A DNA stretch of 64,000 nt from NCBI GenBank assembly GCA_964016885.1, contig OZ024742.1:682001-746000 (forward strand), read 5' to 3'. Positions within the stretch are counted from its first letter, which is position 1. Each line of letters begins with the position of its first letter. This stretch comes from Eledone cirrhosa (lineage: Eukaryota). Of the stretch, positions 6,690-34,548 are shown in pieces. The notes under the pieces are model-generated. The model was not told the origin of the DNA. It did no database searches and was given only the letters and a program-made list of their open reading frames with translations. The translations under genes were made by a program, and so were the position numbers.

Positions 6690-6745
6690 ATTATTTCCAG
6701 CTGAGAGGACAGGAGCAATGTGAAATGAAGTTGTTGAAGGACAAT
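6690..6745 (-). mobile_element. SINE core remnant
   Basis: CAGCTGAGAGGACAGGAGCAATGTGAAATGAAG matches the reverse complement of the SINE body at about 35405-35438. Confidence 0.6.
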
Positions 6746-7261: not shown

Positions 7262-7264
7262 CTG

Positions 7265-7712: not shown

Positions 7713-7738
7713 AATAAGAAAGAAATAAGCCAACTTAC

Positions 7739-7819
7739 CTTTTCAGAATTAGACTTGATACAACGTACAAAGAATGGGTTGCCTTGACTTAGAGTTTCCA
7801 TCAACCTGGAGAGTGACCA
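7739..7819 (-). CDS. MYO9: Myosin motor exon: WSLSRLMETLSQGNPFFVRCIKSNSEK
   Basis: gacAG| acceptor and AAG|GTAAGT donor, 81 nt. Canonical LMxTL...PxFVRCIKxN myosin motif. Confidence 0.96.
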
Positions 7820-7907
7820 CTGTCAACAGATAGAACACATCATTTACACCTGTTTAGAGACATTCCTACAAATAACTCAATATTTCTATTTCAATTCAGG
7901 TTTTTTT

Positions 7908-8672: not shown

Positions 8673-8717
8673 TTTTTCTATAGCATAAAACAACACACAT
8701 CAATTAATGAATGTTAC

Positions 8718-8825
8718 CTGGAATTGAGCGCTGACACTTGGGGGTTGCTTCTTGAAAGGAAATCTTCCACCTCCAATCATGGTACGTGTTGCAATAGTCT
8801 TCAATGTACGGACATCTCTGTAACT
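8718..8825 (-). CDS. MYO9: Myosin IX exon, end of loop 2: SYRDVRTLKTIATRTMIGGGRFPFKKQPPSVSAQFQ
   Basis: tctttAG| acceptor and CAG|GTAACA donor, 108 nt. KKxPPSVSAQFQ is the myosin loop-2 exit motif. Confidence 0.93.
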
Positions 8826-9130
8826 CTAAAGATACAAACGCAGGTGAAATATAATTACTAAGGCTTTAATTAATGCAATATTGTTGTAATATAAAGAAAT
8901 ACAGGTAATGTTAACGAGAAAAACATTGTTTTTAACATCTGTTAATATTTATAGATCTTTTTAAACTCAGAATAGCTGGACAATGGTGCTGTGAAGTCCC
9001 AACGTGATTTTTTTAAAACTGTTTAGTGAGGGATGGAAGGGCAGTACTCATGACCCCCCTTTTTCAGAGCTTCAGCTATTGGAAGAATGGGATCACCTCA
9101 CAGTGGACACATGGCCCAAGTACTTGCAAT

Positions 9131-9668
9131 AGAGTAAACTCAGCTAAAGGTAACACCACAGTAGACTCAGCTAAAGGTAACACCACAGTAGACTCAACTA
9201 AAGGTAACACCACAGTAGACTCAGCTAAAAGTAACACCACAGTAGACTCAACTAAAGGTAACACCACAGTAAACTCAGCTAAAGGTAACACCACAGTAGA
9301 CTCAGCTAAAGGTAACACCACAGTAGACTCAACTAAAGGTAACACCACAGTAGACTCAACTAAAGGTAACACCACAGTAGACTCAACTAAAGGTAACACC
9401 ACAGTAGACTCAGCTAAAGGTAACACCACAGTAGACTCAGCTAAAGGTAACACCACAGTAGACTCAGCTAAAGGTAACACCACAGTAGACTCAGCTAAAG
9501 GTAACACCACAGTAGACTCAACTAAAGGTAACACCACAGTAGACTCAGCTAAAGGGAACACCACAGTAGACTCAGCTAAAGGTAACACCACAGTAGACTC
9601 AACTAAAGGTAACACCACAGTAAACTCAGCTAAAGGTAACACCACAGTAGACTCAGCTAAAGGTAACC
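9131..9668. repeat. 27-bp minisatellite, about 20 units
   Basis: Unit AGTAGACTCAGCTAAAGGTAACACCAC. Confidence 0.97.
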
Positions 9669-10021
9669 ATTGAACCGGTTGACTGTATAAGTCTACCATT
9701 ACTGTAACACATTTCACTTGTCCTCACTTAAAAATAAATAGTCCTCAATTATATGATTCTATTTCACTCTTATGATTCTATAAGAGAGAGCTGGAACTAA
9801 TACAAGGAGGTATTTTGTCCTCACTCTTCCCACATTATAAACTATTCCAGGTATTGGATATATACAGAACCATGACAACATCGGTGTCAATGTTAAAAGA
9901 AGAAAATCTGAAATAGAATATTATGACTGTGGGGTAGTTTTATGTGAGATCTCAAGTATGTGCTGCATATAAGGATGTGAAATAGCTTGAATAATTTTAT
10001 TTTAAACAACAATAATATATT

Positions 10022-11790
10022 ATTAGCCAGGAGTTACATCTGACAGACAGCATAGTATTGGCCAGGAGTTACATCTGGCATATAGTAGTGTTGGTAGGGA
10101 TTACATCTGACAGACAGTATAGTGTTGGCCAGGAGTTATATCTGACATATAGTATAGTGTTGGTCAGGAGTTACATCTGGCATATAGTATAGTGTTGGCC
10201 AGGAGTTACATCTGACAGACAACATAGTGTTGGCCAGGAGTTACATCTGATAGACAGTATAGTGTTGGTCAGGAGTTACATCTGACAGACAGTATAGTGT
10301 TGGCCAGGAGTTACATCTGACAGACAGTATAGTGTTGGCCAGGAGTTACATCTGGCATATAGTATAGTGTTGGCCAGGAGTTACATCTGACAGACAGTAT
10401 AGTGTTGGCCAGGAGTTATATCTGACATATAGTATAGTGTTGGTCAGGAGTTACATCTGACATCTAGTATAGTGTTGGCTAGGAGTTATATCTGGAATCT
10501 AGTATAGTGTTGGCCAGGAGTTACATCTGACATCTAGTATAATGTTGACCAGGAGTTACAGCTGACATATAGTATAGTGTTGGTCAGGAGTTACATCTGA
10601 CATATAGTATAGTGTTGGTCAGGAGTTACATCTGGCATATAGTATAGTGTTGGCCAGGAGTTACAGCTGACATATAGTATAGTGTTGGTCAGGAGTTACA
10701 TCTGACATCTAGTATAGTGTTGGCCAGGAGTTACATCTGGCATATAGTATAGTGTTGGCCAGGAGTTATATCTGACATATAGTATAGTGTTGGCCAGGAG
10801 TTATATCTGACATATAGTATAGTGTTGGTCAGGAGTTACATCTGGCATATAGTATAGTGTTGGCCAGGAGTTACAGCTGACATATAGTATAGTGTTGGCC
10901 AGGAGTTACATCTGACATATAGTATAGTGTTGGCCAGGAGTTACATCTGGCATATAGTATAGTGTTGGCCAGGAGTTACAGCTGACATATAGTATAGTGT
11001 TGGCCAGGAGTTACATCTGACATATAGTATAGTGTTGGCCAGGAGTTATATCTGGCATATAGTATAGTGTTGGTCAGGATATACATCTGACATATAGTAT
11101 AGTGTTGGCCAGGAGTTACATCTGGCATATAGTATAGTGTTGGTCAGGAGTTACATCTGGCATATAGTATAGTGTTGGCCAGGATATACATCTGACATAG
11201 TACAGTGTTGGCCAGGAGTTACATCTGGCATATAGTATAGTGTTGGCCAGGAGTTACATCTGGCATATAGTATAGTGTTGGCCAGGATATACATCTGACA
11301 TATAGTACAGTGTTGGCCAGGAGTTACATCTGGCATATAGTATAGTGTTGGTCAGGAGTTACATCTGGCATATAGTATAGTGTTGGCCAGGATATACATC
11401 TGACATATAGTACAGTGTTGGCCAGGAGTTACATCTGGCATATAGTATAGTGTTGGCCAGGAGTTACATCTGGCATATAGTATAGTGTTGGCCAGGATAT
11501 ACATCTGACATATAGTACAGTGTTGGCCAGGAGTTACATCTGGCATATAGTATAGTGTTGGTCAGGAGTTACATCTGGCATATAGTATAGTGTTGGCCAG
11601 GATATACATCTGACATATAGTACAGTGTTGGCCAGGAGTTACATCTGGCATATAGTATAGTGTTGGCCAGGAGTTACATCTGGCATATAGTATAGTGTTG
11701 GCCAGGATATACATCTGACATATAGTACAGTGTTGGCCAGGAGTTACATCTGGCATATAGTATAGTGTTGGTCAGGAGTTACATCTGCCA
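10022..11790. repeat. 35-bp minisatellite, about 50 units, with 105/210-bp higher-order structure at the right end
   Basis: Unit TATAGTATAGTGTTGGCCAGGAGTTACATCTGGCA; identical ORFs at 11352 and 11562 are 210 bp apart. Confidence 0.97.
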
Positions 11791-12132
11791 GATAATATCA
11801 GCAACAACAATGTTTCATGTAAATATAGTCTGCAGACATTTGTAGTAAATTGTTAAACATTCTCCTTAACAGAAACTTATCCTTCTAGACACTCATACTC
11901 TTACCAAATCCTTCCGCCATAAAACAGCATCCCTCATGAATTCTCTCACCCTCCTCCAACCCCCCAACCCCAAGCCAAAGTTTTCTCTATATAGAAATTT
12001 AACATTCATCACATGAATCTCTCACCAGTCAGATAAAGATGACCCCCACAAAAGTCCAGGGCTCTGCCACAGCCCTACCCCACACTATTTTAGAAATAAA
12101 AAAAAACGAAAATGTGAAAATGCTTTACTTAC

Positions 12133-12172
12133 AACACTTTGTCTGTATTTGGATTTTGTGCACTTGTTTTTC
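12133..12172 (-). CDS. MYO9: Myosin IX loop-2 exon: (R)KNKCTKSKYRQSV
   Basis: cttaacAG| acceptor, |GTAAGT donor, 40 nt, phase 2 in and 0 out. Resembles the basic RNKNFKSK segment recalled from Myo9a. Confidence 0.72.
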
Positions 12173-12337
12173 CTGTTAAGTAGAAAGTAATGAATATATA
12201 TTTATTAATTTATCCTGTGTTTTTCATTGAAAAAATGTTGAATACATCTCTTTTCATGATATTTGGATTACATTGAGTTCTTCATACGGATTGGACATTA
12301 CCGTATATTTTGGTAGATTTATCTACATATATATATA

Positions 12338-13475
12338 TCATCATCATCAACGTTTAACGTCCATGTTCCACGCTTGCATGGGTTTGGACGGGGGTAGTCC
12401 CACTTGAGGCAAGAGTGATTTTCTTGCTCGCATAGGACTGTCTGGCAGGTTTTCTACAGTTGGATGCCCTTCCTAACACCAACCACATTTACAGTGTGGG
12501 TCTGGGAGGTTTTTACCATGTTGCCTACACGGCCACATTACAGCGTGGACTGTGCGTTTTTTTGTCGTGACACCTACACGATCTCATTTGTTTCGGCCTG
12601 GATGGCGCGGCACCAACATAACTTTACATAGAACGGGGTGGTGTGGATGGGGTGGGGGTGGTGGTGGTGGGACGGGGTGTATTTTGTTAGAGATGCCTAC
12701 TGGCAAGGCGGGTCTTCTCTATTACTGAGTACCGCCAAAGGTCTCGGTCCAGTGACATTGTCTTGGTGAGGTGTAAGTGCGTGAGGTCGGAGTTTATCAG
12801 CTCGTCCCAGGTTTTTCTGGGTCTGCCTATTCCGTGGCTACCGTCTATCTTTATTGCCCTGCACTTTGTTATACAGCTATCATCCTTCATGCGTATCACG
12901 TGACCATACCAACGTAGCCTTCTCTCGAGTAAACAACATCTGATCCCTCTTATTTCTAATTTTTTCCTTAGTTCGTTTATGCTTTGTCGTTCACGTATAT
13001 TACTATTACACATCCAGCGGAGCATGCAAGCTTCGTTTCTCTCTAGTCTGCGTATATCCTCTGCACACAATGCCCAGGTCTCACTGCCATGCAACATTGC
13101 TGTTCGTATGCAGGCATCGTACAGCCTGCCTTTCATTTTTAGTGAGAACCCTTTAGCGGCTAATAGTGGTATAAGCTCTCTGAACTTTTTCCACCCAGTT
13201 CTGACTCTAGCTACAGTACTTTCAGAGCACCCTCCCCCACTGCTGATTTTGTCACCCAGGTAACGGAAGCTGTCCACTATTTCTATAGAACCCTCTGCGC
13301 AGTTGAAAGAGCTAGTATTTTGTGGGCACTTGCTGCTACTTATATCCCCAGAATACCGGCCACATGTAAAATCTATGTTCTTAGTTAGCTTACCTGTGAT
13401 CCCACTACATCTTTTATGCACCCAAACTTTGCATTTGGGACACAAAATGGAATTTCTACCTACGCCTTTCCTACA
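12338..13475 (-). mobile_element. 5'-truncated RTE-clade LINE: C-terminal ORF fragment (12687-13475), 3' UTR and (GAT)n tail
   Basis: Motifs FRYLGD, LYDACIRTAMLHGSETW, RRLRWYGHVIRM and GRPRKTW are typical RTE post-RT sequence. Cys/His cluster CxxCxxWVHxxC. Flanked by (TA)n on both sides. Confidence 0.93.
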
Positions 13476-13498
13476 CACATATATATATATATATATAT

Positions 13499-13533
<35 letters not shown>

Positions 13534-13536
13534 CAA

Positions 13537-13569
<33 letters not shown>

Positions 13570-13769
13570 GATAATCTATTATAGCTTTGATAGGGATGAT
13601 AAATAATTAAATATTATTGAATTTAACCATTAAGAATACTATTATAATTATTGTAAGAATATATTCTATGATATGGTACTTTTGAAAGAACTCACTTTAC
13701 GAGATTTTCTATAAATAACAACAGCATCATATTAAAAACAAATAACACCAAACATCCAATATATATATA

Positions 13770-14973
13770 TGTGTGTCATCCGATAAGTAATGTTTTTTTT
13801 TACACTGTACTTTTTAAAATATGTTCCAGTATGTTCAAACAAGATTTCTTCACAGTTGTATAAATACAGAGAAAGAAAAGCTTCAATTAGTTTCTAGTTT
13901 GTAGACACAAATTTTCATTTGTTGCTTTAATAATCCTTCCAGAAAAGTCAGAAAAAAGCACATAAGACAAGACATGATTTACAAGTTTAAAAAACGGCAA
14001 CTGGGCTCTGAATACTTTAAAAAGTGTAAAATTTGTACAGTGAAGATGTCTTGAATGTTAGTAAGTTCCAAAGAGAGTTCAATAAATTTCAACAAGGAAA
14101 GTTTAACTTAGATGATGGCCATTGCTCAGAGTGCCATATCTCTTTTGTTGAAAGACTCCTATTGAAAAAGAAATCCCATGCAACAAAGAGATAGCAGAAG
14201 AGGTTAATTTAATGTCATCAACTGTCTATTGCAGGAACTTGGAATGGTGTCAAATCTTGGCAAATAGATTTTACATGAACTTTTACAACCAAAGAGAACG
14301 TGTCAGCATCTGCACAGCTCTTCATTCTTGAGAGTGTAAGTGTCCATTTTTAAACTGTCTTGTAACTGGTGATGAAAAGTGGATACTCTATAAGAATGTT
14401 ACATGTCGATAGCAGTTGGTTCAATCAGGACAACAAAAATCTCATCTAAAACAAGATCTTCATCCTCAGTTTTGTGAAGTGTTTGGTAGGTTAAGACTTG
14501 TGCCATACACATTGAAACCTCACTTTGCCACAAAATCTGACAATCACAGCTCAAATGTACTGTGAACAATCCAATCAATTGAATGAAATATTGAAATAAT
14601 GTACTCTCTAGTCAATCAAAAGGGTACCATTTTCCATTACAATAACGCCCAGCCTCATAGTGCCTGGATTACATGTTCCATAAAGAACGTGCCTGGAAAA
14701 GGCTTCCACATCGTCCATATTCTTCTGACCTTGTTCCTTTAGTTTATCATTTATTCCAATATTTGTAACATGTTATTAATGGAAAACAGTGCAAATTCTT
14801 AGAGGGGCTTCAAATGGACCACTTCACTTTTTCTCCTCCAAACTGTCTGATTTCTATAGGAACCGCATAAGAAACCTTTATTGAATATAAACTTGATTAA
14901 ATTTAGTAACTTGTGTTTTTTATCTCTTCAAAACCTAAAACTAAAAGTAAAATCTCTTATCGGATGGCCACGC
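13770..14973 (+). mobile_element. Decayed Tc1/mariner DNA transposon, about 1.2 kb, with a transposase pseudogene
   Basis: Inverted termini CATCCGATAAG (13777) and CTTATCGGATG (14956). Remnant motifs VTGDEKWILYKN (~14362), FHYNNAQPH (~14632) and PHRPYSSDLVPLVYHLF (~14706), with stops and frameshifts. Confidence 0.9.
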
Positions 14974-15384
14974 GTGCGTGTGTGTATGTGGACATACACA
15001 CACACAAACACACACACACACACACACACACAAAAACAGCCATAAAATGTTTCTAGAATTTATCTTTTCCTTATTTGAAATTGTTTTCTTTTTCTCAATT
15101 TGTTAAATATCTCATAATTCTTATCACCATCCACGCAGTTTTCAGACTTCATATGCCCCTTATTATTAAAACATCCATGAGGTGTAACGTATAAGGAGGG
15201 TAAACATTGGACCCTATTATTAAAACATCCAAGAAACCCCTATGAAATGTAACCTTGTAAGAAGGTAGTTAAAGCTACATGTGAACTACAACAACAACAA
15301 CAACAACAATATAGAGCAAAGTTAATGTAATATTGTAGAGACAGATATTGAAGTACGGGGAACTTTGTCTATTTTATCAGAACA

Positions 15385-15890
15385 TACATATATAGCATAT
15401 ATACACCATATATACACCATATATATATCATATATACACCACATATATAGCATATATACACCACATATATAATTCATATATACACCACATATATACATCA
15501 TATACACCACATATATACATCATATACACCACATATATACATCATATACACCACATATACCATATATACATAATATATACACCACATATATACATCATAT
15601 ACACCACATATATACATCATATACACACCACATATATACCATATATACATCATATATACACCATATACACACCACATATATACTATACATACACCATATA
15701 TACACCACATATATACATCATATACACACCACATATATACCATATATACATCATATATACACCACATATATAACATATACCACATATACACCACATATAT
15801 ACTATATATATACACCACATATATACTATATATACACCACATATACAGCACATATATACTACATATATACACTATATACACACCACATTT
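15385..15890. repeat. Degenerate compound microsatellite (CATATATACACCA-type)
   Basis: Visible directly. Confidence 0.9.
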
Positions 15891-15998
15891 GTACGTCATA
15901 TACCAACACAACAAATAGATTTCAAACCAGTCACAAGTGACAAACACATGTAAATATATAGAACAAAACATTACCACTTCTTCAAAGACAGTCTGTCT

Positions 15999-16707
15999 TT
16001 AACCCTTTCATTACCATTTTTCTAATGAAAGACACTGTCTATGTCATTAACCCTTTCATTAGCATATTTCTAATGAAAGACACTACCTATGTCATTAACC
16101 CTTTCATTACCATTTTTCTAATGAAAGACACTGTCTATGTCATTAACCCTTTCATTACCATTTTTCTAATGAAAGACACTACCTATGTCATTAACCCTTT
16201 CATTACCATATTTCTAATGAAAGACACTGTCTATGTCATTAACCCTTTCATTACCATTTTTCTAATGAAAGACACTACCTATGTCATTAACCCTTTCATT
16301 ACCATATTTCTAATGAAAGACACTGTCTATGTCATTAACCCTTTCATTACCATTTTTCTAATGAAAGACACTACCTATGTCATTAACCCTTTCATTACCA
16401 TTTTTCTAATGAAAGACACTGTCTATGTCATTAACCCTTTCATTACCATTTTTCTAATGAAAGACACTACCTATGTCATTAACCCTTTCATTACCATTTT
16501 TCTAATGAAAGACACTACTTATGATTTTATAATTTGGAGAGATTTAGAAATATAACTTTCTCATAATTCAGCTGTTGTTCTGAAAATAATTTATCAAAGG
16601 TTTTTGTATAAAATTATGATTTTAGATAAATCTAAACTGTTTAAAATAAATAGTTTTGTATCATAGAACCAGACTAGTTTTAGGCAGTTTGGCATTAAAA
16701 GAGTTAA
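15999..16707. mobile_element. TTAA-flanked (piggyBac-like) MITE whose left end is amplified as a 48-bp tandem repeat (15999-16520, about 11 units)
   Basis: Begins TTAACCCTTT and ends AAAGAGTTAA. Unit TTAACCCTTTCATTACCATTTTTCTAATGAAAGACACT(GT/AC)CTATGTCA. Confidence 0.7.
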
Positions 16708-16998
16708 CCATGTGTTGGCAGTTGATTCATTCAAATGACTAAAACTACTTATTAACTCTTACATCCTGTAATGATTTAGCAGCAAAATATCTAAAAATGG
16801 GTTTGTTAATTCAAGTGTTTATAGTGCCTTTACTAATGGACAGATTTTTATGAAAATTTGCAGTATTAAAATATAAACTTTAATGTGATGCAGTTATAGT
16901 GCATCTTTATAGTTTTCAAGAATACCTTGCCAATGTGGTTTCATGTGGGACAGGACGTTAAGAGTTAAAGAATATAGTGTTATAGGTAGAAGACATAC

Positions 16999-17421
16999 AT
17001 TATCACTTGCTGTGTCTTCATTAAGAGCATCAGCAACTGGTAGATAACTCTCTACAGGACTGGTCAGAGGTTGACTTGTTGGCAACATGCTGCTTGTCAG
17101 GCTATGGCTGTGATGACAACTGTCTGTTGTGCCACAGCCTGTCACATCACATACTCTGCTGCCACTTGGACACAATGTTAGAGGATGAGACACACCAAAA
17201 TGGTCAGCAGTAGCAGTAGTAGCAGTAGTAGCATTAGTAGTAGCTGTAGCATTAGCAGAAGCAGTAGTGGCAGCAGCTGTAGTGGTTTGCTTGTGGTTAG
17301 TAGAGAGTGGACATGCAATACTGGTCAGCTGGTTGTTAGGCAAAGGTAGTGCTGCTCTCTCTCTGATAGTAGGAGAAGGAGGAGGACAGGAAGCAGGTCG
17401 CCATTCCCAGCATGCCGTATA
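16999..17421 (-). CDS. Candidate 423-nt low-complexity (Ser/Thr/Ala/Pro-rich) exon within the Myo9 loop-2 region
   Basis: Strong pyrimidine tract ctttctttctgttttctatatAG|, 141 open codons (YTACWEWRPASCPPPSP...EDTASDN), AAT|GTATGT donor. Phase 0/0 does not join directly to the flanking phase-2 exons. Confidence 0.4.
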
Positions 17422-17666
17422 CTATATAGAAAACAGAAAGAAAGTTGATCCAAACAGCATGGCATCAACATTGCGTCAAATAAAGTTATAGTTTTTCCAA
17501 CACACATACACATGCATACATACACACACACACTCAGATACACCCAGACACACACACACACACACAGGCATTCATTTAACCTTATAATACATTATCACCA
17601 AAATAATGTTTTTATTAGAAGGCTACAGCAATGTAAATAGGACAAAGTATATAAAAAATTAATGAT

Positions 17667-17877
17667 AAAGATGTTGGAATGTTACCTTGCAGTTGTTTAA
17701 TAGCCCCTAATATTTCAGGATAAAATCCTTTCATCAGAAAAATAATTCAGGAAACTAATTTGAAGCAAGATATTTCATCGTTCTTAAGCTTAGATATCCT
17801 ACTCTTTTGAGGAGCGGATTTATCCCGAAATATTAAGGGTTCATTTAATAACTCCAAGGTAACATTCCAATATCTTT
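17667..17877. mobile_element. Old inverted-repeat element (arms of about 62 bp) with degenerate minimal hammerhead motifs; probably Penelope-like
   Basis: 17667-17728 is approximately the reverse complement of 17816-17877. The minus strand reads CTGATGA-a-aggat-ttt-atcct-GAAA-tat-TA-gggg. Confidence 0.6.
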
Positions 17878-18084
17878 GTTATAATATTTTTAACATTTAA
17901 TGTCTCATGTATTACTGTAGTCTTCTAATAAAATACAATATTTTCTACACTTTATACAATCTTTCAAATTATAACAGCCTCTTGTGACTACATCATCACT
18001 GTTGACTTTACAGAAGAAGAAAATGACAACATTGAAAGGTTGGCTGATCTCTAACAATACTTTATATGTGATATGACAGAGATC

Positions 18085-19400
18085 AGCTCTTACAACCTCC
18101 ACCCCGGTCTTCCTTGCTCTCCTACTGCAGCTTCCCTCCACTGAGATTTCTTGGTACTTCATCCAACGATCATTCATACGTATCACATGTCCATACCAGT
18201 GCAGTCTTCTCTCCAGCACACTACACCTGATTCCTCTTATACCCAGTTTCTCTCTCAGTTCATCTCTGCGTATTTGTTATCACACACTAGCATTAAAGCC
18301 CGGCGTTGCTCGGGGTCATTAAGTTACCAAAGTTAGGTTGCACCACCCATTTTATGGCAGCACTTTTTTGTCTGCCAGGCACTGGGTGAATGAATTGCAG
18401 ACCTGGAAGCATGAGCTGCGCCAGCAGTGACAATTGTAGTTTCGCCTATGGATATTATCTCTGCAAAAAAGTGTTGAAATTTATTGTTTCACAGTACTTG
18501 CGCAACACGCGCGTAGACGATGCCAGCCGAACAACAGAGCTGCGATGGAGTTGTTCTGCATGGTTGTCTGTGTGTTTTCTAAATTTAAGACAGTAGGGAG
18601 GGTTGTGATATGAGGGAGAGTTAGCTGTTGTTTCTAGCAGGTTTAGTGACCTCATAGAGGATATGTGTTTTCTAAATTTAAGACAGTAGGGAGTGGTGTG
18701 ATATGGGGGAGAGTTAGCTGCTGTTTCTAGCAGATTTAGTGACTTCATAGAAGATATGTTTTCTAAATTTAAGACAGTAGGGAGGGGTGTGATATGGGGG
18801 AGAGTTAGCTGCTGTTTCTAGCAGGTTTAGTAACCTCATAGAGGATATATGTTTTCTAAATTTAAGACAGTAGGGAGTGGTGTGGGGAGGGGTGTGTTAT
18901 GGGGGAGAGTTAGCTGCTGTTTCTAGCAGGTTTAGTAACCTCATAGAGGATATGTGTTTTCTAAATTTAAGACAGTTGGGAGTGGTGTGGACGGACAGTA
19001 TCACCATCAAGCTTGGAAAGAGAAAGTAGCAGAAAGTATGAAGTTGTATAGATTTTGAATGGTAGTAGAAAGAGTTCAGCAGTTTAAATGAGAGAGAAAA
19101 ATCGTAAAATATTGAGTTTTATCTATTTTTTTCGTAATTGTGGGTGAAATTGAAAAAATTATCTGCGTCAAGACGCAATCAAAGCTATTTTGAATACTGA
19201 ATTGTAAATTTCAATTGAAGAAATTCTATATCGTAGATTTCTATAACGAAGGAGCATGACCACACACTGAGCTTTATAGATTATGATTAACATTGCACAT
19301 CCATTGGAGTATGTTGACTTTGTTTCTCCACATCCTTCACATATCCTCTGCATTCACTGCCCACATCTCACTAACATCACACATCATACAGATCACCATT
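18085..19400 (-). pseudogene. Older RTE LINE ORF fragment split into 18085-18286 and 19281-19400 by a Helitron insertion
   Basis: The two parts translate to SEMWAVNAED / QWMCNVN and ELREKLGIRGIRCSVLERRLHWYGHVIRMND, collinear with the 12687 ORF. Confidence 0.8.
18287..19280 (-). mobile_element. Non-autonomous Helitron (994 bp) with internal ~93-105-bp tandem repeats (18571-18990)
   Basis: On the minus strand it starts A|TC and ends with a GC-rich hairpin CCCGAGC-AAC-GCCGGG, 8 nt, then CTAG|T. A/T target with no target-site duplication. Confidence 0.85.
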
Positions 19401-19677
19401 CTAACTATTACATTTTAATAATTACTAAATTGTGCTTTAATAAACTAAGGTTTATGTGAATAAATTCTAATGTTTACTAAACTGTGGTTCATTAGATTAC
19501 GGTTTAGTAAACTATGGTTTACTAAATTAAACAAAAAAGAAACCAAATGTTAAATGAAGAGAGAATAGCGAAAACAAAAGAAATACAAGACTGTCCCAAA
19601 TAAATGGTGGTTAGTGTAAATAAGATAAATTTAGAGCTTTCTGTTCTACTAAGTCAGGATTAATGATATTAACTTAC

Positions 19678-19740
19678 CTCTCTAAACTGTTCAATAATTT
19701 ATTACCCAAATTACTACAGCATGTCCTTTGTAAATCTGAC
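19678..19740 (-). CDS. MYO9: Myosin IX loop-2 exon: (R)SDLQRTCCSNLGNKLLNSLE(R)
   Basis: ttttcAG| acceptor, GAG|GTAAGT donor, 63 nt, phase 2/2, open frame. Confidence 0.7.
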
Positions 19741-20034
19741 CTGAAAATATAGAAATTATTCCTGAGCTGTGTCAAGGACATGACGACCTCCCTAGTGTTT
19801 GGTGATCTACACAACAAATACACCCAGTGCCCTCTCACTGACCACTTTACTGCATAACTGACAATATAAATGGGCTATCTACCTTGTCTACAGTCAACAA
19901 GGACATCAAATTTAACTTTCAAACCATTGATATATAGTGAGGAACCTTCATAAAACTATACAATATGATAATAGAGAGTAGGTTGGAAAGAGACAGTGGT
20001 AACAAATATGAAACTATGCCATGTGTATTTGTAT

Positions 20035-20065
<31 letters not shown>

Positions 20066-20157
20066 ACGAAGGAAATGTGGTAAGGAACCAGGTGGACCAT
20101 AACGCACCAAAGTACTCAATACTTGAGGTAGTAGAGTGGATAATAGGAACCAGTAAG

Positions 20158-20251
20158 ACCCCGACAGCTGAGCTCAAGCCGTTTCGACGGCTAATTCTGG
20201 ACTAAATGAAAATTTATCCTGGTATTTAAATAGCCGATCTTCTCAAGGGGT
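20158..20251 (-). ncRNA. Second copy of the type I hammerhead ribozyme, sense to the Myo9 pre-mRNA
   Basis: Reverse complement of 20972-21065. Confidence 0.8.
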
Positions 20252-20971
20252 AATTCGATATATGGTCAAAGTGATTGTCAAAAATCAGTAGTAATTCTGT
20301 GGTTGCAAATTAGTAGGGGAGATGGTGGCTAAACCTGCCAGTAGGAGAAAGAGGGGAGGGGTGGAGTAGCCCCAATCAAGCGTTTGTAGTGCCAGCTACA
20401 GCTGGGCATGAGGTCAAAGAAGATACAGGGGAGGGGGAGGGGGAGGAGTCGGAACGGTAGGTAGAACAATGGGGGGGGGGGGGGGGTAGAAATATATAGG
20501 AAGGAAAAATACTGAGAGTGAAGAAAAGCAAATAAGTGTAAAGAAAAACAAATGAGTGTAAAGAAAAAAGTAAAGTAAATTAAATTCTACGACCTAGGTC
20601 TCAGGCTATTGTTAGTCTAGAATAAATAAATAAATAAAGAAAGAAAGAAGTAAAGAAAGAAATAAAGAAATAACGAAATAAGTAAAAGAACTAGGTGGGA
20701 CGGAATAGGCGAGGACCCTTTTAAGAGGTATAAGTACGTAAATGATACGGTGACGGGTCAACAAAAGGGGCCAAAATACTAAAGAGACTACCCCTGTATC
20801 TTCTTTGACCTCATGCCCAGCTGTAGCTGGCACTACAAACGCTTGATTGGGGCTACTCCACCCCCTCCCCTCTTTCTCCTACTGGCATGTTTAGCCACCA
20901 TCTCCCCTACTAATTTGCAACCACAGAATTACTACTGATTTTTGACAATCACTTTGACCATATATCGAATT

Positions 20972-21065
20972 ACCCCTTGAGAAGATCGGCTATTTAAATA
21001 CCAGGATAAATTTTCATTTAGTCCAGAATTAGCCGTCGAAACGGCTTGAGCTCAGCTGTCGGGGT
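20972..21065 (+). ncRNA. Type I hammerhead ribozyme (U3-A8 core variant), predicted cleavage after GUC at 21060
   Basis: Helix I ACCCC/GGGGT; core TTGAGAA; helix II GA(T)CGGCTA/TAGCCGTC; GAA; helix III ACGGCT/AGCTGT; C17. Confidence 0.8.
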
Positions 21066-21075
21066 CTTACTGGTT

Positions 21076-21113
<38 letters not shown>

Positions 21114-21246
21114 ACTCTTTAGTTGCAACAATAAGAAGTGTGCCAATCACAACGTCCTGGGGTTTAATCCTACTTCAATATATTATCACTAGTTATTGTA
21201 TTAATGGAGAACTGTGTGGTAATTTAGTCTCAACAGGTAACCTAAT

Positions 21247-24200
21247 ATGTCACAACCTACCCCACTATATCACAACCTACCCCACTATATCACAACCTAC
21301 CCCCAAATATCACAACCTACCCCACTATATCACAACCTACCCCACTATATCACAACCTACCCCACTATGTCACAACCTACCCCACTATGTCACAACCTAC
21401 TCCACTATGTCACAACCTACCCCACTATGTCACAACCTACCCCACAAGAACACAACCTACCCCACTATTTCACAACCTAAACCACTATATCACAACCAAC
21501 CTCACTATATCACAACCTACTCCACTATATCACAACCTACCCCACTATATCACAACCTACCCTACTATATCACAACCTACCCCACTATATCACAACCTAC
21601 CCCACTATATCACAACCAACCTCACTATATCACAACCAACTCCACTATGTCACAACCTACTCCACTATGTCACAACCTACCCCACTGTCACAACCTACCC
21701 CACTATATCACAACCTACCCCACTATGTCACAACCTACCCCACTATTTCACAACCTACCCCAGTACATCACAACCTACCCCACTATATCACAACCTACCC
21801 CACTATATCACAACCTACCCCACTATGTCACAACCTACCCCACTATGTCACAACCTACTCCACTATGTCACAACCTACCCCACTATGTCACAACCTACCC
21901 CACTATATCACAACCTACCCCACTATATCACAACCAACTCCACTATGTCACAACCTACTCCACTATGTCACAACCTACCCCACTGTCACAACCTACCCCA
22001 CTATATCACAACCTACCCCACTATGTCACAACCTACCCCACAAGAACACAACCTACCCCACTATTTCACAACCTACCCCAGTACATCACAACCTACCCCA
22101 CTATATCACAACCTACCCCACTATATCACAACCTACCCCACTATGTCACAACCTACCCCACTATGTCACAACCTACTCCACTATGTCACAACCTACCCCA
22201 CTATATCACAACCTACCTCACTATATCACAACCTACCCCACTATATCACAACCTACCCCACTATATCACAACCTACCCCACTATATCACAACCTACCCCA
22301 CTATATCACAACCTACCCCACTATATCACAACCAACCTCACTATATCACAACATACTCCACTATATCACAACCTACCCCACTATTTCACAACCTACCCCA
22401 GTACATCACAACCTACCCCACTATAACACAACCTACTCCACTATATCACAACCTACCCCACTATAACAACCTACTCCACTATATCACAATCTACCCCAAG
22501 CATCACAACCTACCCCACTATTTCACAACCTACCCCACTATGTCACAACCTACCCCACTATGTCACAACCTACCCCACTATAACACAACCTACCCCACTA
22601 TAACACAACCTACCCCACTATTTCACAACCTACCCCAGTACATCACTACCTACTCCACTATATCACAACCTATCCCACTATATCACAACCTACCCCACTG
22701 TCACAACCTACCCCACTATTTCACAACCTACCCCAGTACATCACAACCTACTCCACTATATCACAACCTACCCCACCGTTACACAACCTACCCCAGTACA
22801 TCACAACCTACCCCACTATATCACAACCTACTCCAGTACATCACAACCTACCCCAGTACATCACAACCTACCCCACTATTTCACAACCTACCCCACTATG
22901 TCACAACCTACCCCACTATAACACAACCTACCCCAGTACATCACAACCTACCCCACAATAACACAACCTACCCCACTATTTCACAACCTACCCCAGTACA
23001 TCACAACCTACCCCAGTACATCACAACCTACTCCACTATATCACAACCTACCCCACCGTTACACAACCTACCCCAGTACATCACAACCTACCCCACTATA
23101 TCACAACCTACTCCAGTACATCACAACCTACCCCAGTACATCACAACCTACCCCACTATTTCACAACCTACCCCACTATGTCACAACCTACCCCACTATA
23201 ACACAACCTACCCCAGTACATCACAACCTACCCCACAATAACACAACCTACCCCACTATTTCACAACCTACCCCAGTACATCACAACCTACCCCAGTACA
23301 TCACAACCTACCCCACTATATCACAACCTACCCCACTATGTCACAACCTACCCCAGTACATCACAACCTACCCCACTATATCACAACCTACCCCACTATA
23401 TCACAACCTACCCCAGTACATCACTACCTACTCCACTATATCACAACCTACCCCAGTACATTACAACCTACCCCAGTACATCACAACCTACCGCAGTATA
23501 TCACAACCTACCCCACTATATCACAACCTACCCCACTATAACACAACCTAACACACTATTTCACAACCTACCCCAGTACATCACAACCTACCCCAGTACA
23601 TCACAACCTACCGCAGTATATCACAACCTACCCCACTATAACACAACCTACTCCACTATATCACAACCTACCCCACATTTCACAACCTAACCCAGTACAT
23701 CACAACCTACCCCAGTACATCACAACCTACCGCAGTATATCACAACCTACTCCACTATATCACAACCTACCCCACTATAACACAACCTACCCCACTATTT
23801 CACAACCTAACCCAGTACATCACAACCTACCCCACTATATCACAACATATCCCACTATATCACAACCTACCCCACTGTCACAACCTACCCCACAATAACA
23901 CAACCTACCCCACTATATCACAACCTACCACACTATTACACAACCTACCCCAGTACATCACAACCTACCCCACTATATCACAACCTACTCCAGTACATCA
24001 CAACCTACCCCAGTACATCACAACCTACCCCACTATTTCACAACCTACCCCACCTATGTCACAACCTACCCCACTATATCACAACCTACCCCACAATAAC
24101 ACAACCTACTCCATTATTTAACAACCTACCCCAGTACATCACAACCTACCCCAGTACATCACAACCTACCCCAGTACATCACAACCTACCCCAGTACATC

Positions 24201-27200
24201 ACAACCTACCCCACTATATCACAACCGACCCCACTATGTCACAACCTACCCCAGTACATCACAACCTACCCCACTATATCACAACCTACCCCACTATAAC
24301 ACAACCTAACACACTATTTCACAACCTACCCCAGTACATCACAACCTACCCCAGTACATCACTACCTACTCCACTATATCACAACCTACCCCAGTACATT
24401 ACAACCTACCCCACTATAACACAACCTAACACACTATTTCACAACCTACCCCAGTACATCACTACCTACTCCACTATATCACAACCTACCCCAGTACATC
24501 ACAACCTACCCCAGTACATCACAACCTACCGCAGTATATCACAACCTACCCCACTATATCACAACCTACCCCACTATAACACAACCTACTCCATTATTTA
24601 ACAACCTACCCCAGTATATCACAACCTACTCCACTATATCACAACCTACCCCACTATAACACAACCTAACACACTATTTCACAACCTACCCCAGTACATC
24701 ACAACCTACCCCAGTACATCACAACCTACCGCAGTATATCACAACCTACCCCACTATATCACAACCTACCCCACTATATCACAACCTACCCCACTATATC
24801 ACAACCTAACCCAGTACATCACAACCTACCCCAGTACATCACAACCTACCCCAGTACATCACAACCTACCCCAGTACATCACAACCTACCCCAGTACATC
24901 ACAACCTACCCCAGTACATCACAACCTACCCCAGTATATCACAACCTACTCCACTATATCACAACCTACCCCACTATAACACAACCTACCCCACTATTTC
25001 ACAACCTAACCCAGTACATCACAACCTACCCCACTATATCACAACCTATCCCACTATATCACAACCTACCCCACTGTCACAACCTACCCCACAATAACAC
25101 AACCTACCCCACTATATCACAACCTACTCCACTATATCACAACCTACCACACTATTACACAACCTACCCCAGTACATCACAACCTACCCCACTATATCAC
25201 AACCTACTCCAGTACATCACAACCTACCCCAGTACATCACAACCTACCCCACTATTTCACAACCTACCCCACTATATCACAACCTACTCCAGTACATCAC
25301 AACCTACCCCAGTACATCACAACCTACCCCACTATATCACAACCTACCCCACAATAACACAACCTACTCCATTATTTAACAACCTACCCCAGTACATCAC
25401 AACCTACCCCAGTACATCACAACCTACCCCAGTACATCACAACCTACCCCAATACATCACAACCTACCCCACTACATCACAACCTACCCCACTATATCAC
25501 AACCTACCCCACTATATCACAACCTACCCCACTATGTCACAACCTACCCCAGTACATCACAACCTACTCCACTATTTCACAACCTACCCCACTATGTCAC
25601 AACCTACCCCACTATATCACAACCTACCCCACAATAACACAACCTACTCCATTATTTAACAACCTACCCCAGTACATCACAACCTACCCCACTATATCAC
25701 AACCTACCCCACTATTTCACAACCTACCCCAGTACATCACAACCTACCCCACTACATCACAACCTACCCCACTATATCACAACCTACCCCACTATGTCAC
25801 AACCTACACCAGTACATCACAACCTACTCCACTATTTCACAACCTACCCCACTATGTCACAACCTACACCACTACATCACAACCTACTCCACTATTTCAC
25901 AACCTACCCCACTATGTCACAACCTACCCCACTATAACACAACCTTCCCCCACTATAACACAACCTAACACACTATTTCACAACCTACCCCAGTACATCA
26001 CAACCTACCCCACTATATCACAACCTATCCCACTATATCACAACCTACCCCACTGTCACAACCTACCCCAGTACATCACAACCTACCCCAATATGTCACA
26101 ACCTACCCACTATAACACAACCTACCCCAGTACATCACAACCTACCACACTATAACACAACCTACCCCACTATAACACAACCTAACACACTATTTCACAA
26201 CCTACCCCAGTACATCACAACCTACCCCAGTACATCACAACCTACCCCACTATATCACAACCTACCCCACTATAACACAACCTAACACACTATTTCACAA
26301 CCTACCCCAGTACATCACAACCTACCCCAGTACATCACAACCTACCGCAGTATATCACAACCTACCCCACTATAACACAACCTAACACACTATTTCACAA
26401 CCTACCCCAGTAAATCACTACCTACTCCACTATATCACAACCTAACCCCACATTTCACAACCTAACCCAGTACATCACAACCTACCCCAGTACATCACAA
26501 CCTACCCCAGTACATCACAACCTACCCCACTATATCACAACCTACCCCACTATGTCACAACCTACCCCACTATGTCACAACCTACCCCACTATAACACAA
26601 CCTATCCCACTATTTCACAACCTACCCCAGTACATCAGTACCTACTCCACTATATCACAACCTACCCCACTATTTCACAACCTACCCCAGTACATCACAA
26701 CCTACTCCACTATATCACAACCTACCCTACTATATCACAACCTACCCCACTATTTCACAACCTACCCCAGTACATCACAACCTACTCCACTATATCACAA
26801 CCTACCCTACTATATCACAACCTACCCCACTATAACACAACCTACCCCACTATTTCACAACCTACCCCACTATATCACAACCTACTCCACTATATCACAA
26901 CCTACCCCACTATAACACAACCTACCCCACTATATCACAACCTACCCCAGTACATCACAACCTACTCCACTATGTCACAACCTACCCCACTATATCACAA
27001 CCTACCCCACTATAACACAACCTACCCTACATTTCACAACCTACCCAAGTACATCACTATCTACCCCACTATTTCACAACCTACTCCACTACATCACAAC
27101 CTACCCCAGTACATCACAACCTACCCCACTATATCACAACCTACCCCAGTACATCACAACCTACCCCAGTACATCACAACCTACTCCACTATATCACAAC

Positions 27201-30200
27201 CTACCCCACTATTACACAACCTACCCCAGTACATCACAACCTACCCCAGTACATCACAGCCTACCCCACTATATCACAACCTACCCCAGTACATCACAAC
27301 CTACCCCACTTTTTCACAACCTACCCCAGTACATCACAACCTACCCTACTATATCACAACCTACCCTACTATATCACAACCTACCACAGTACATCACAAC
27401 CTACTCCACTATGTCACAACCTACCCCACTATGTCACAACCTACCCCAGTACATCACAACCTACCCCACTATATCACAACCTACTCCACTATATCACAAC
27501 CTACCCCACTATAACACAACCTACCCCACTATTTCACAACCTAACCCAGTACATCACAACCTACCCCACTATATCACAACCTACCCCACTATATCACAAC
27601 CTACCCCACTATGTCACAACCTACCCCAGTACATCACAACCTACCCCAGTACATCACTACCTACTCCACTATTTCACAACCTACCCCAGTACATCACAAC
27701 CTACCCCAGTACATCACAACCTACCGCAGTATATCACAACCTACCCCACTATATCACAACTTACCCCACTATAACACAACCTAACACACTATTTCACAAC
27801 CTACCCCAGTACATCACAACCTACCCCAGTACATCACAACCTACCCCAGTACATCACTACCTACTCCACTATTTCACAACCTACCCCAGTACATCACAAC
27901 CTACCCCAGTACATCACAACCTACCGCAGTATATCACAACCTACCCCACTATATCACAACCTACCCCACTATAACACAACCTTCTCCACTATATCACAAC
28001 CTACCCCACATTTCACAACCTAACCCAGTACATCACAACCTACCCCAGTACATCACAACCTACCCCAGTATATCACAACCTACTCCACTATATCACAACC
28101 TACCCCACTATTTCACAACCTAACCCAGTACATCACAACCTACCCCACTGTCACAACCTACCCCACTACATCACAACCTACCCCACTATATCACAACCTA
28201 CCCCACTATATCACAACCTACTCCAGTACATCACAACCTACCCCAGTACATCACAACCTACCCCACTATTTCACAACCTACCCCACAATAACACAACCTA
28301 CTCCATTATTTAACAACCTACCCCAGTACATCACAACCTACCCCAGTACATCACAACCTACCCCAGTACATCACAACCTACCCCAGTACATCACAACCTA
28401 CCCCAAAACATCACAACCTACCCCACTACATCACAACCTACCCCACTATATCACAACCTACCCCACTATATCACAACCTACCCCACTATGTCACAACCTA
28501 CCCCAGTACATCACAACCTACTCCACTATTTCACAACCTACCCCACTATGTCACAACCTACCCCACTATATCACAACCTACCCCACAATAACACAACCTA
28601 CACCATTATTTAACAACCTACCCCAGTACATCACAACCTACCCCAGTACATCACTACCTACTCCACTATATCACAACCTACCCCAGTACATCACAACCTA
28701 CCCCAGTACATCACAACCTACCCCAGTACATCACAACCTAACCCAGTACATCACAACCTACCCCAGTACATCACAACCTACCCCACTATTTCACAACCTA
28801 CCCCACTATTTCACAACCTACCCCAGTACATCACAACCTACCCCACTACATCACAACCTACCCCACTACATCACAACCTACCCCAGTACATCACAACCTA
28901 CCCCACTATTTCACAACCTACCCCACTATGTCACAACCTACACCAGTACATCACAACCTACCCCACTATAACACAACCTTCCCCCACTATATCACAACCT
29001 ACCCCACTATGTCACAACCTACCCACTATAACACAACCTACCCCAGTACATCACAACCTACCCCACTATTTCACAACCTACCCCACTATGTCACAACCTA
29101 CACCAGTACATCACAACCTACCCCACTGTCACAACCTACCCCACAATAACACAACCTACCCCACTATATCACAACCTACCCCACTATGTCACAACCTACC
29201 CACTATAACACAACCTACCCCAGTACATCACAACCTACCACACTATAACACAACCTACCCCACTATAACACAACCTAACACACTATTTCACAACCTACCC
29301 CAGTACATCACAACCTACCCCAGTACATCACAACCTACCGCAGTATATCACAACCTACCCCACTATATCACAACCTACCCCACTATAACACAACCTACCC
29401 CAGTACATCACAACCTACCCCAGTACATCACAACCTACCGCAGTATATCACAACCTACCCCACTATATCACAACCTACCCCACTATAACACAACCTACTC
29501 CACTATATCACAACCTAACCCCACATTTCACAACCTAACCCAGTACATCACAACCTACCCCAGTACATCACAACCTACCCCAGTACATCACAACCTACCC
29601 CACTATATCACAACCTACCCCACTATGTCACAACCTACCCCACTATGTCACAACCTACCCCACTATAACACAACCTATCCCACTATTTCACAACCTACCC
29701 CAGTACATCAGTACCTACTCCACTATATCACAACCTACCCCACTATTTCACAACCTACCCCAGTACATCACAACCTACTCCACTATATCACAACCTACCC
29801 TACTATATCACAACCTACCCCACTATTTCACAACCTACCCCAGTACATCACAACCTACTCCACTATATCACAACCTACCCTACTATATCACAACCTACCC
29901 CACTATAACACAACCTACCCCACTATTTCACAACCTACCCCACTATATCACAACCTACTCCACTATATCACAACCTACCCCACTATAACACAACCTACCC
30001 CACTATATCACAACCTACCCCAGTACATCACAACCTACTCCACTATGTCACAACCTACCCCACTATATCACAACCTACCCCACTATAACACAACCTACCC
30101 TACATTTCACAACCTACCCAAGTACATCACTATCTACCCCACTATTTCACAACCTACTCCACTACATCACAACCTACCCCAGTACATCACAACCTACCCC

Positions 30201-33200: not shown

Positions 33201-34470
33201 GACAACCTACTCCACTATATCACAACCTACCCCACTATTACACAACCTACCCCAGTACATCACAACCTACCCCAGTACATCACAGCCTACCCCACTATAT
33301 CACAACCTACCCCAGTACATCACAACCTACCCCACTTTTTCACAACCTACCCTACTATATCACAACCTACTCCACTATGTCACAACCTACCCCAGTACAT
33401 CCCAACCTACCCCAGTACATCACAACCTACCCCACTATATCACAACCTACCCCAGTACATCACAACCTACCCCACTATAACACAACCTACCCCAGTACAT
33501 CACAACCTACCCCAGTACATCACAACCTACCCCACTATATCACAACCTACCCCAGTACATCACAACCTACCCCGGTACATCACAACCTACCCCACTATAT
33601 CACAACCTACCACAGTACATCACAACCTACCCCACTATATCACAACCTACCCCAGTACATCACAACCTACCCCACTATTTCACAACCTACTCCACTATGT
33701 CACAACCTACCCCACTATGTCACAACCTACCCCACTATAACACAACCTACCCCAGTACATCACAACCTACCCCACTATATCACAACCTACCCCACAATAA
33801 CACAACCTACTCCACTATTTCACAACCTACCCCAGTACATCACAACCTACCCCACTATATCACAACCTACCCCACTATTTCACAACCTACCCCAGTACAT
33901 CACAACCTACCCCACTATATCACAACCTACCCCAGTACATCACAACCTACCCCACTATGTCACAACCTACCCCACTATAACACAACCTACCGCACTATAT
34001 CACAACCTACCCCAGTACATCCCAACCTACCCCAGTACATCACAACCTACCCCACTATAACACAACCTACCCCACTATATCACAACCTACCCCAGTACAT
34101 CACAACCTACCCCACTATGTCACAACCTACCCCACTATAACACAACCTACCCCAAATATCACAACTTACCCCACTATAACACAAGCTACCCCACTATATC
34201 ACAACCTACCCCAGTACATCACAACCTACCCCACTATAACACAACCTACCCCAGTACATCACAACCTACCCCACTATAACACAACCTACCCCAGTACATC
34301 ACAACCTACCCCACTATAACACAACCTACCCCACTATAACACAACCTACCCCAGTACATCACAACCTACCCCACTATAACACAACCTACCCCACTATAAC
34401 ACAACCTACCCCAGTACATCACAACCTACCCCACTATAACACAACCTACCCCAGTACATCACAACCTACC
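21247..34470. repeat. 20-bp minisatellite, about 13.2 kb and 660 units, with a 3073-bp higher-order duplication
   Basis: Unit TCACAACCTACCCCA(CTATA/GTACA). Identical ORFs at 27411/30484 and 28928/32001 are 3073 bp apart. Confidence 0.98.
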
Positions 34471-34548
34471 TCAATAAATGATCACTGGTTAATTTGCAAC
34501 TTTCTCGGTGAGATGTATCATTTGTTATCTTTGGAGGTTTCTTAGATT
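34470..34548 (-). CDS. MYO9: Myosin IX loop-2 exon: KSKKPPKITNDTSHRESCKLTSDHLL(R)
   Basis: Poly-T tract then ggcAG| acceptor, GAG|GTAGGT donor, 79 nt. Phase 1 in and phase 2 out match both neighbouring exons with no stop. Confidence 0.75.

What the first reader, a model, noticed from the sequence alone, without database searches (positions are those of the whole stretch)
20066..21080. Intronic ribozyme preceded by its own antisense copy: a possible self-masking ~290-bp hairpin in the Myo9 pre-mRNA
Seen: near-perfect inverted arms, so the insertion is probably young, sitting in a (TA)n tract. Myo9 is transcribed on the minus strand, so the antisense arm (21080-20791) is made first and the sense hammerhead (20251-20158) second. 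Established: Penelope-like elements carry hammerheads in their pLTRs and often leave inverted pLTR pairs. Inference: arm pairing could block self-cleavage of the nascent transcript and make the insertion tolerable. The long duplex would also be an ADAR substrate, relevant if the host is a coleoid cephalopod, and editing could destabilise it about 400 nt upstream of exon 19678-19740.
Basis: partly seen in the sequence, partly recalled or inferred. Interest (0 to 1): 0.75.

Follow-up and report, generated by a model that had tools for sequence, protein, structure and literature searches.

The report
Back-to-back Penelope retrotransposon ends, octopus intron
The hairpin in this myosin-IX intron is one copy of a young, abundant Penelope-type jumping gene that often inserts as two back-to-back ends; pairing of the ends is predicted to shut off the ribozyme, which likely does cut RNA in other copies, but nothing shows that the shut-off was selected to protect the host gene.

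Summary
In detail: 289-nt inverted arms (one mismatch, one indel) in (TA)n, in a myosin-IX intron of an octopod, with a U3-A8 type I hammerhead in each arm. The insert is a 5'-truncated, head-to-head copy of a Hydra-clade Penelope-like element (3.6-kb unit, RT plus GIY-YIG; 2,151 exact matches to the ribozyme's 5' half genome-wide). This layout and the core variant are published. 'Antisense first' follows from the geometry in either direction of transcription. Masking is predicted to be complete (about 145 kcal/mol), yet 27 of 61 complete-ribozyme insertions sampled by position have no masking arm, so the adaptive claim is unsupported and untested. Two family-level results add interest. In 50 of 253 ultra-short fold-backs examined, 34 of 100 arms start exactly at the predicted cut, likely a record of cleavage in vivo. 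Most short copies start about 40 nt earlier, at a TATA/Inr-like site inside loop II, likely the element's own transcription start. No editing scar was found and no RNA run was listed. The scan's unchecked notes report the same layout, cut-site starts and an upstream start peak on other DNA.

The parts
20066..21080 (.). Whole insertion: head-to-head pair of 5'-truncated ends of a Hydra-clade Penelope-like element
   Evidence: blastn to one natural full-length unit (L032): unit 2858-3577 at 20792-20066 (96.7%) and unit 3211-3500 at 20791-21080 (99.0%), 2-nt overlap at the junction
20066..20142 (-). 77-nt one-sided 'tail' (stretch between the two fixed 3' ends of the family)
   Evidence: copies end at unit 3500 or 3577 only: 19 and 11 of 30; 46 of 50 ultra-short fold-backs have one end of each kind
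20143..20431 (-). Sense arm in the Myo9 transcript (3' UTR/pLTR end of the element)
20158..20251 (-). Type I hammerhead, U3-A8 core, predicted cut 20163/20162
   Evidence: family copies start at the cut
20199..20232 (-). TATA-like word (20232-20225) and Inr-like word (20205-20199) in loop II: inferred transcription start of the element
   Evidence: positions; exact-word counts step from 3,306 to 23,188 across this site; 26 of 30 copies start at unit 3436-3455; consensus names recalled; no RNA evidence
20432..20790 (-). 359-nt loop of the hairpin: more 3' UTR of the same element, with two acceptor-like pyrimidine tracts (AG at 20617 and 20512)
20791..21080 (+). Inverted short arm (antisense in the Myo9 transcript), with a second complete hammerhead at 20972-21065 (C17 at 21060)
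20038..20065 (.). (TA)n target, left part
   Evidence: 27 of 30 best copies end in (TA)n, the other 3 run on into the next unit
21078..21110 (.). (TA)n target, right part
19678..19740 (-). Myosin-IX exon downstream of the insertion
   Evidence: a 404-nt contig of run X4 (kind not on record) matches only 19677-19742 with other sequence on both sides
34470..34548 (-). Likely upstream myosin-IX exon; the host intron is then 19741-34469 (14.7 kb)
   Evidence: peptide resembles P0015 by eye, AG/GT ends read; it did not appear in the tblastn table filtered at 60% identity

Best explanation
The insert is a 5'-truncated copy of a young Hydra-clade Penelope-like retrotransposon, likely built when both nicked strands of a (TA)n target each primed a copy of the same RNA at two fixed sites 77 nt apart and the two copies were joined head to head; the arms are predicted to pair in the myosin-IX pre-mRNA and block the hammerhead, likely as a by-product rather than an adaptation. 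Shown: family identity, architecture, two fixed ends, shared private variant, frequency of masked and unmasked copies, spike of copy starts at the cut site. Inferred: twin priming, in-vivo cleavage, transcription start in loop II, masking in the cell, neutrality for Myo9.
For: [quoted passage not shown] 31 of 39 best other copies are head-to-head and 25 have a partner covering the whole ribozyme; 26 of 27 partners that reach a 3' end stop at the short end (this set was selected for having the tail). In the unselected ultra-short class 46 of 50 have one long and one short end. Both window arms share a G>C change seen in 0 of 70 and 0 of 71 aligned arms; 12 of 25 pairs share at least one private variant, 28 shared in all; either arm can be the longer one, so one is not simply a copy of the other. 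Folding: the active fold costs 142-149 kcal/mol against the duplex. Unmasked complete copies are common, 27 of 61. The layout is described for PLEs in general (PMC8557442, PMC3846280, PMC2377424).
Against: No gene annotation was available, so purging of unmasked sense copies from introns is not excluded. The ribozyme is probably active (34 of 100 arms at the cut), and fast intronic ribozymes harm splicing (Fong 2009 as cited in PMC10919898), so masking could matter at some loci. Shared private variants could also come from one donor locus giving two RNAs, or from conversion between arms; 13 of 25 pairs share none. The 28 paired clusters were classed from coordinates alone. Pfam and PDB gave no match for the ORF; its identity rests on motifs and on by-eye likeness to Hydra-1_Obim.
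Confidence: 0.8

Rival explanations
1. Selected self-masking: the arm arises mechanically, but unmasked sense copies cut host pre-mRNA and are purged, so intronic copies that persist are enriched for the masking arm.
For: Likely in-vivo cleavage; isolated ribozyme folds well with up to 60 nt of upstream flank (stem probabilities 0.6-0.97 at short downstream lengths); masking is predicted complete; related retrozyme sequences are depleted from introns in Xenopus (bioRxiv 10.64898/2026.07.22.740005).
Against: 27 of 61 sampled complete copies are unmasked (genic status unknown). Cut-start insertions are roughly a tenth as many as insertions copied through an intact site (about 110-180 loci, from 22-35 of 50 times 253, vs 2,151 arms with the 5' half), so cutting looks partial. 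The cut lies only about 420 nt before the next exon, a short time window. The Anolis PLE ribozyme cuts only with the element's protein (PMC11167929). Native flank of 100 nt or more lowers the active fold.
Confidence: 0.12
2. The ribozyme is effectively silent in host transcripts with or without the arm; the starts at the cut site come from cleavage only inside the element's own protein-RNA particle, or from a reverse-transcriptase stop at the G run.
For: Protein-assisted cleavage and no RNA-seq ends at the cut in Anolis; low in-vitro activity of metazoan PLE hammerheads (PMC4209133); arm-less folding disfavours the active form by 4.5-6.9 kcal/mol. 9 of the 50 junctions are ambiguous because of a CG microhomology.
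Against: 13 of 50 loci have both arms exactly at the cut with 1-7 inserted nucleotides, against 1 locus with both arms at any other single offset (p about 2e-14), which fits run-off from a real RNA end; no strong helix base is predicted at that position in the short RNA. This argues for real cleavage but does not say in which context. This rival is largely compatible with the best explanation.
Confidence: 0.4
3. The hairpin is a co-opted regulatory switch for Myo9, in which ADAR editing opens the duplex and releases the ribozyme.
For: 289-bp duplex with 158 adenosines; coleoid editing is widespread in repeats and introns (PMC9068888).
Against: The copy is one of thousands from a recent burst, too young for conservation; no A>G or T>C private change in it and no A>G excess on the element's sense strand in 40 loci; a 140-kcal/mol margin needs very dense editing to reverse (inference).
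Confidence: 0.04

Closest known systems
Hydra clade of C-terminal EN+ Penelope-like elements, incl. Hydra-1_Obim of Octopus bimaculoides and Penelope-13_HM (Craig et al. 2021, PMC8557442; passages, section 11 and supplement rows seen)
   Same: RT plus C-terminal GIY-YIG, DKT, RW, CxCx5C, CxxC and CxH motifs, no CCHH, (TA)n target, hammerhead near the 3' end, inverted 5'-truncated copy (noted for Penelope-13_HM), one-sided tail.
   Different: A different family from Hydra-1_Obim (other hammerhead sequence in File S2). Unit 3.6 kb rather than under 3 kb; tail 77 nt rather than 30-40; U3-A8 core and 37-nt loop II where the six Hydra rows seen have C3 cores and loops of 4-10 nt.
Minimal hammerheads of metazoan PLEs (Cervera and de la Pena 2014, PMC4209133; parts 1-2 of 4 read)
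   Same: Type I, long helix II, short helix I, palindromic loop III, U3-A8 variant (Schistosoma Cercyon), pairs of motifs 100-700 bp apart on opposite strands.
   Different: Here helix III is 5 bp and predicted to form in a monomer; genomic starts at the cut site give indirect in-vivo evidence, which that paper says was lacking.
Poseidon element PAc of Anolis carolinensis (Frangieh et al. 2024, PMC11167929; passages and section 3 part 2 read)
   Same: Two internal reverse-transcription starts that define the tail; both target strands cut and extended; AT-rich target; uncut RNA is the main template.
   Different: PAc showed no RNA-seq ends at the ribozyme cut; this family shows a sharp set of genomic starts there. 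The pairing of one long with one short end per insertion is shown here from genome copies.
Intronic self-cleaving ribozymes such as CPEB3 (PMC10919898; passages)
   Same: Ribozyme upstream of an exon; antisense pairing can block cleavage.
   Different: CPEB3 is conserved and single-copy, HDV-like; this is a recent transposon end with no conservation.

Membership tests
EN+ Penelope-like element | Single ORF with RT and GIY-YIG endonuclease | tested here: met
   787-aa open frame with QFD/YRDD RT motifs and a VIY...YIG motif; by motif, as Pfam gave no hit
EN+ Penelope-like element | Partial tandems forming pLTRs | tested here: met
   L031, L032, L033, L057, L065, L066
EN+ Penelope-like element | Inverted 5'-truncated copy and tail on one side only | tested here: met
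   31 of 39 head-to-head; 46 of 50 long+short; window copy
EN+ Penelope-like element | RT groups with PLE/telomerase RTs in a tree | not tested
   No named reference PLE proteins were held as usable sequences; homologues found (2,190 at E<=0.001) were unnamed
Hydra clade | DKT in place of DKG; RWK-type motif; no GxKF/Y | tested here: met
   DKT at 184, RLRW at 102 (followed by I in L031, R in L033 and L039), no GxKF/Y or DKG/DKA
Hydra clade | CxCx5C linker; CCHH absent; CxxC and CxH around catalytic E and N | tested here: met
   CxCx5C at 639, one Cys only between GIY and YIG, CxxC at 737, CxH at 765; also in 113-119 of 120 homologues
Hydra clade | (TA)n insertion | tested here: met
   27 of 30 best copies end in (TA)n, 3 continue into the next unit
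Hydra clade | Generally under 3 kb; canonical hammerhead | tested here: inconclusive
   Unit 3,577 nt and a U3-A8 variant core; both are stated as general trends, not strict criteria
Type I hammerhead ribozyme | Core nucleotides and three helices with G10.1-C11.1 and A15.1-U16.1 | tested here: met
   All present, with U3-A8 for C3-G8; a G-C for G-U change in helix III is common among copies; no Rfam match
Type I hammerhead ribozyme | Self-cleavage after C17 | tested here: inconclusive
   Indirect only: 34 of 100 arms start at the predicted product end vs 10 over offsets -2 to -8; no assay
Non-LTR retrozyme | Short non-coding tandem monomers with one hammerhead each | tested here: not met
   The repeat unit is a 3.6-kb coding element; the window copy is not tandem
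Naiad/Chlamys PLE | N-terminal GIY-YIG, DKA motif | tested here: not met
   Endonuclease is C-terminal, DKT

The most novel reading that the evidence does not exclude
This family has a live hammerhead with two built-in safeties. Its promoter sits inside loop II, so RNA that the element starts itself carries only half the ribozyme and cannot cut its 5' end, while read-through RNA is cut. Twin-primed insertion adds an antisense arm that silences the ribozyme in either direction, and selection removes unmasked sense copies from host introns. The promoter part alone has perhaps even odds; the selection part is untested.
Probability: 0.1. Interest if true: 0.65.

Novelty: new member of a known kind. 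Interest (0 to 1): 0.33.

Why it matters
The locus itself is ordinary. The family is useful as a test bed: it has more than two thousand nearly identical complete ribozymes, split about 56:44 into masked and unmasked, so one annotation-based count would decide whether transposon hammerheads harm host introns and whether inverted arms rescue them. The copies also record RNA ends: a spike at the predicted cut is indirect evidence for cleavage in the germ line, for which the papers read here report no in-vivo evidence, and the long/short pairing of ends supports copying from both target strands.

Tried and rejected
Rfam: no hammerhead match. Pfam and PDB: no match for the ORF. Sequencing runs: no RNA holder listed; four contig sets of unrecorded kind were laid, which cannot show ends, strand or level; differences in X4 were mostly shared with X1, no splice-like joint in the element was listed, and with thousands of copies these cannot test editing. 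Whether the insertion is polymorphic could not be told from them. ADAR scars: private T>C on the element's sense strand is 3.4 times A>G (71 vs 15, p=3e-6) but without depletion of a 5' G on the antisense strand (16 seen, 15.9 expected), so rejected as editing; U-to-C misreading by the reverse transcriptase is my guess. Arm identity as a clock for this copy: rejected. MITE or DNA fold-back origin: rejected, the arms are ends of an RT-coding unit with variable junctions. Retrozyme and Naiad: rejected (membership table). Intron-orientation test: not possible without gene models. Literature searches for a prior report of masking by an inverted arm or of genomic starts at the cut site listed none by title or abstract start; only nine papers were opened, subscription papers (e.g. 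Lunse 2017, Evgen'ev and Arkhipova 2005, recalled or seen as references only) were not searched, and supplements of the bioRxiv preprint were not seen. The search of earlier findings by sequence gave nothing.

Full report
Observation. The arms are real: 20143-20431 pairs with 20791-21080 with one substitution and one indel, around a 359-nt loop, between (TA)n tracts. The minus-strand motif at 20251-20158 folds as a type I hammerhead with a U3-A8 core, 5-bp stem I, 8-bp stem II with a 37-nt loop and 5-bp stem III; C17 is 20163. Rfam misses it. The same motif lies on the plus strand at 20972-21065, so transcription in either direction meets an antisense copy first and a sense copy second.

Host. 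One exon peptide matches Octopus and Argonauta myosin-IXa at 94%. tblastn with three of these proteins places the exons on the minus strand, including the 63-nt exon 19740-19678. The likely upstream exon ends at 34470, so the intron is 14.7 kb, of which 13.2 kb is a 20-nt tandem array. The host is thus an octopod-type coleoid.

What the insert is. A search of the own genome with the sense arm gave 40 scored matches, 39 besides the window, all 99% identical. Longer stretches showed pLTR-ORF-pLTR units of 3,577 nt. The ORF has RT motifs, a C-terminal GIY-YIG and the Hydra-clade motifs DKT, RW, CxCx5C, CxxC and CxH, without CCHH or GxKF/Y (compared with PMC8557442 section 11). It resembles Hydra-1_Obim by eye but has another hammerhead. 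Pfam and PDB did not recognise it; 2,190 unnamed homologues exist. The window copy is unit 2858-3577 joined head to head, over a 2-nt overlap, to unit 3211-3500.

The inverted arm is routine. Of the 39 best other copies, 31 have a head-to-head junction, 8 show none (one of them runs off the fetched stretch); 25 have a partner covering the whole ribozyme; of 27 partners that reach a 3' end, 26 stop at the short end. That set was chosen for having the tail. For an unselected set I took the first 100 of 2,151 exact matches to the ribozyme's 5' half: 62 insertions, 28 with a divergent pair by coordinates, against a chance of about 0.4% for an unrelated neighbour. All 34 singles were fetched: 6 have a partner over the cut site, 27 have none, 1 lacks its own 3' half. 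So 34 of 61 complete ribozymes are masked and 27 are not. The layout is published for PLEs (PMC8557442 passages; PMC3846280 passages; PMC2377424 passages), and opposite-strand hammerhead pairs and the U3-A8 core are in PMC4209133 (parts 1-2 of 4).

How it likely formed. Copies end only at unit 3500 or 3577 (30 of 30), and 46 of 50 ultra-short fold-backs have one end of each kind. Either arm may be the longer. The two window arms share a G>C change absent from 70 and 71 aligned arms, and 12 of 25 pairs share private variants. PAc cuts and extends both target strands and starts at two internal sites that define the tail (PMC11167929). I infer two cDNAs, one per strand, from one RNA or one donor, joined at their 3' ends. 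Arms within insertions are no more alike than arms between insertions, so the youth is that of the family.

Is the ribozyme live? Of 15,634 exact matches to the 20 nt after the cut, 10,593 also match the 6 nt before it; of 31 such exceptions among the first 100, most were a stem III variant, but two insertions had both arms starting at the cut. A pattern for ultra-short fold-backs found 253 loci; I examined the first 50. Of 100 arms, 34 start exactly at the cut, 27 one base earlier (mostly an ambiguous palindromic junction), 16 read two or more bases through it, 23 are shorter. In 13 loci both arms start at the cut with 1-7 inserted bases, against 1 locus with both arms at another single offset. 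This fits reverse transcriptase running off a cleaved 5' end. Such loci are roughly a tenth as many as those copied through an intact site, so cutting seems partial; unequal RNA stability could bias that ratio. Cleavage was not measured.

A second RNA end. Exact-word counts rise from 3,306 to 23,188 over an 11-nt shift inside loop II (the larger count includes older subfamilies). In the young subfamily 26 of 30 copies start at unit 3436-3455, none between 3380 and 3435, and 30 tiny divergent pairs account for 60 of the first 100 matches. A TATA-like word lies 29 nt before an Inr-like word there (consensus recalled). The likely reading is an internal promoter, as in Drosophila Penelope, but placed inside the ribozyme, so self-started RNA would lack the 5' half of the core. 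There is no RNA evidence.

Masking. With the upstream arm the ribozyme is predicted 99.8-99.9% paired and the active fold costs 142-149 kcal/mol; in-register pairing dominates once 30 nt of the sense arm exist, about 150 nt before the ribozyme begins. Without the arm, the isolated motif folds well, but 100 nt or more of native upstream flank lower it, by 4.5-6.9 kcal/mol in the full context. Fast intronic ribozymes reduce splicing and slow ones do not (Fong 2009, as cited in PMC10919898), the cut is only about 420 nt from the next exon, and the PAc ribozyme needs its protein. So masking is likely but may rescue little. The test for selection needs gene models, which were not available.

Editing. 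Coleoid editing in repeats and introns is widespread (PMC9068888 passages), so the duplex is a plausible but ordinary substrate. No A>G scar is in this copy or in excess in 40 loci. No RNA holder was listed.

Earlier notes. After my first reading, the scan's unchecked notes showed the same layout, twin copying, cut-site starts and an upstream start peak in other families and genomes, and one note that found no concentration at the cut. The cut-site counts here were made after and; they are my own tests, and the notes are not counted as support.

Verdict. Observation confirmed; interpretation partly supported. New member of a known kind. Interest 0.33, mostly for the family-level record of RNA ends and for making the masking question countable.

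Noticed in passing
G000-wide; e.g. L149-L198: About 120-bp fold-back insertions whose two arms start exactly at the predicted hammerhead cut, often with one to a few inserted A/T bases (253 pattern loci, 50 examined).
   Followed up: yes
G000-wide; L071-L100; window 20199-20232: Thousands of about 200-bp fold-backs (60-nt plus 138-nt arms) of several subfamilies start at a TATA/Inr-like site inside loop II of the ribozyme; likely the element's transcription start.
   Followed up: partly
window 21246-34470: The 13.2-kb 20-nt tandem array begins at the likely splice donor of the upstream myosin-IX exon, and each unit repeats that donor hexamer on the minus strand: about 660 donor-like sites in one intron.
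   Followed up: no
window 1-4535, 5251-6483, 8085-8673, 10012-11798, 36741-64000: Most of the window is minisatellite arrays (48, 40, 47, 35 and 34 nt units) filling myosin-IX introns; the 48-nt and 47-nt units look related.
   Followed up: no
window 17023-17416: A long low-complexity myosin-IX exon present in some O. bimaculoides isoforms (P0012) and absent from P0015 and P0016: alternative exon just downstream of exon 19740-19678.
   Followed up: no
L031-L069 vs unit L032: Private T>C changes on the element's sense strand are 3.4 times A>G, without ADAR neighbour bias; possibly a reverse-transcriptase error signature.
   Followed up: partly
window 20617 and 20512, minus strand: Two acceptor-like pyrimidine tracts in the unpaired loop and one donor-like word at 21070; possible cryptic splicing, not tested.
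   Followed up: no
L034:3356-6435 and L039:2-1018: Other, more diverged Hydra-like ORFs lie next to copies of this family (73% DNA identity over 155 nt in L034).
   Followed up: no
window 12690-13613 and 17908-18276, minus strand: Decayed RTE-like LINE fragments in myosin-IX introns (label recalled from peptide appearance).
   Followed up: no
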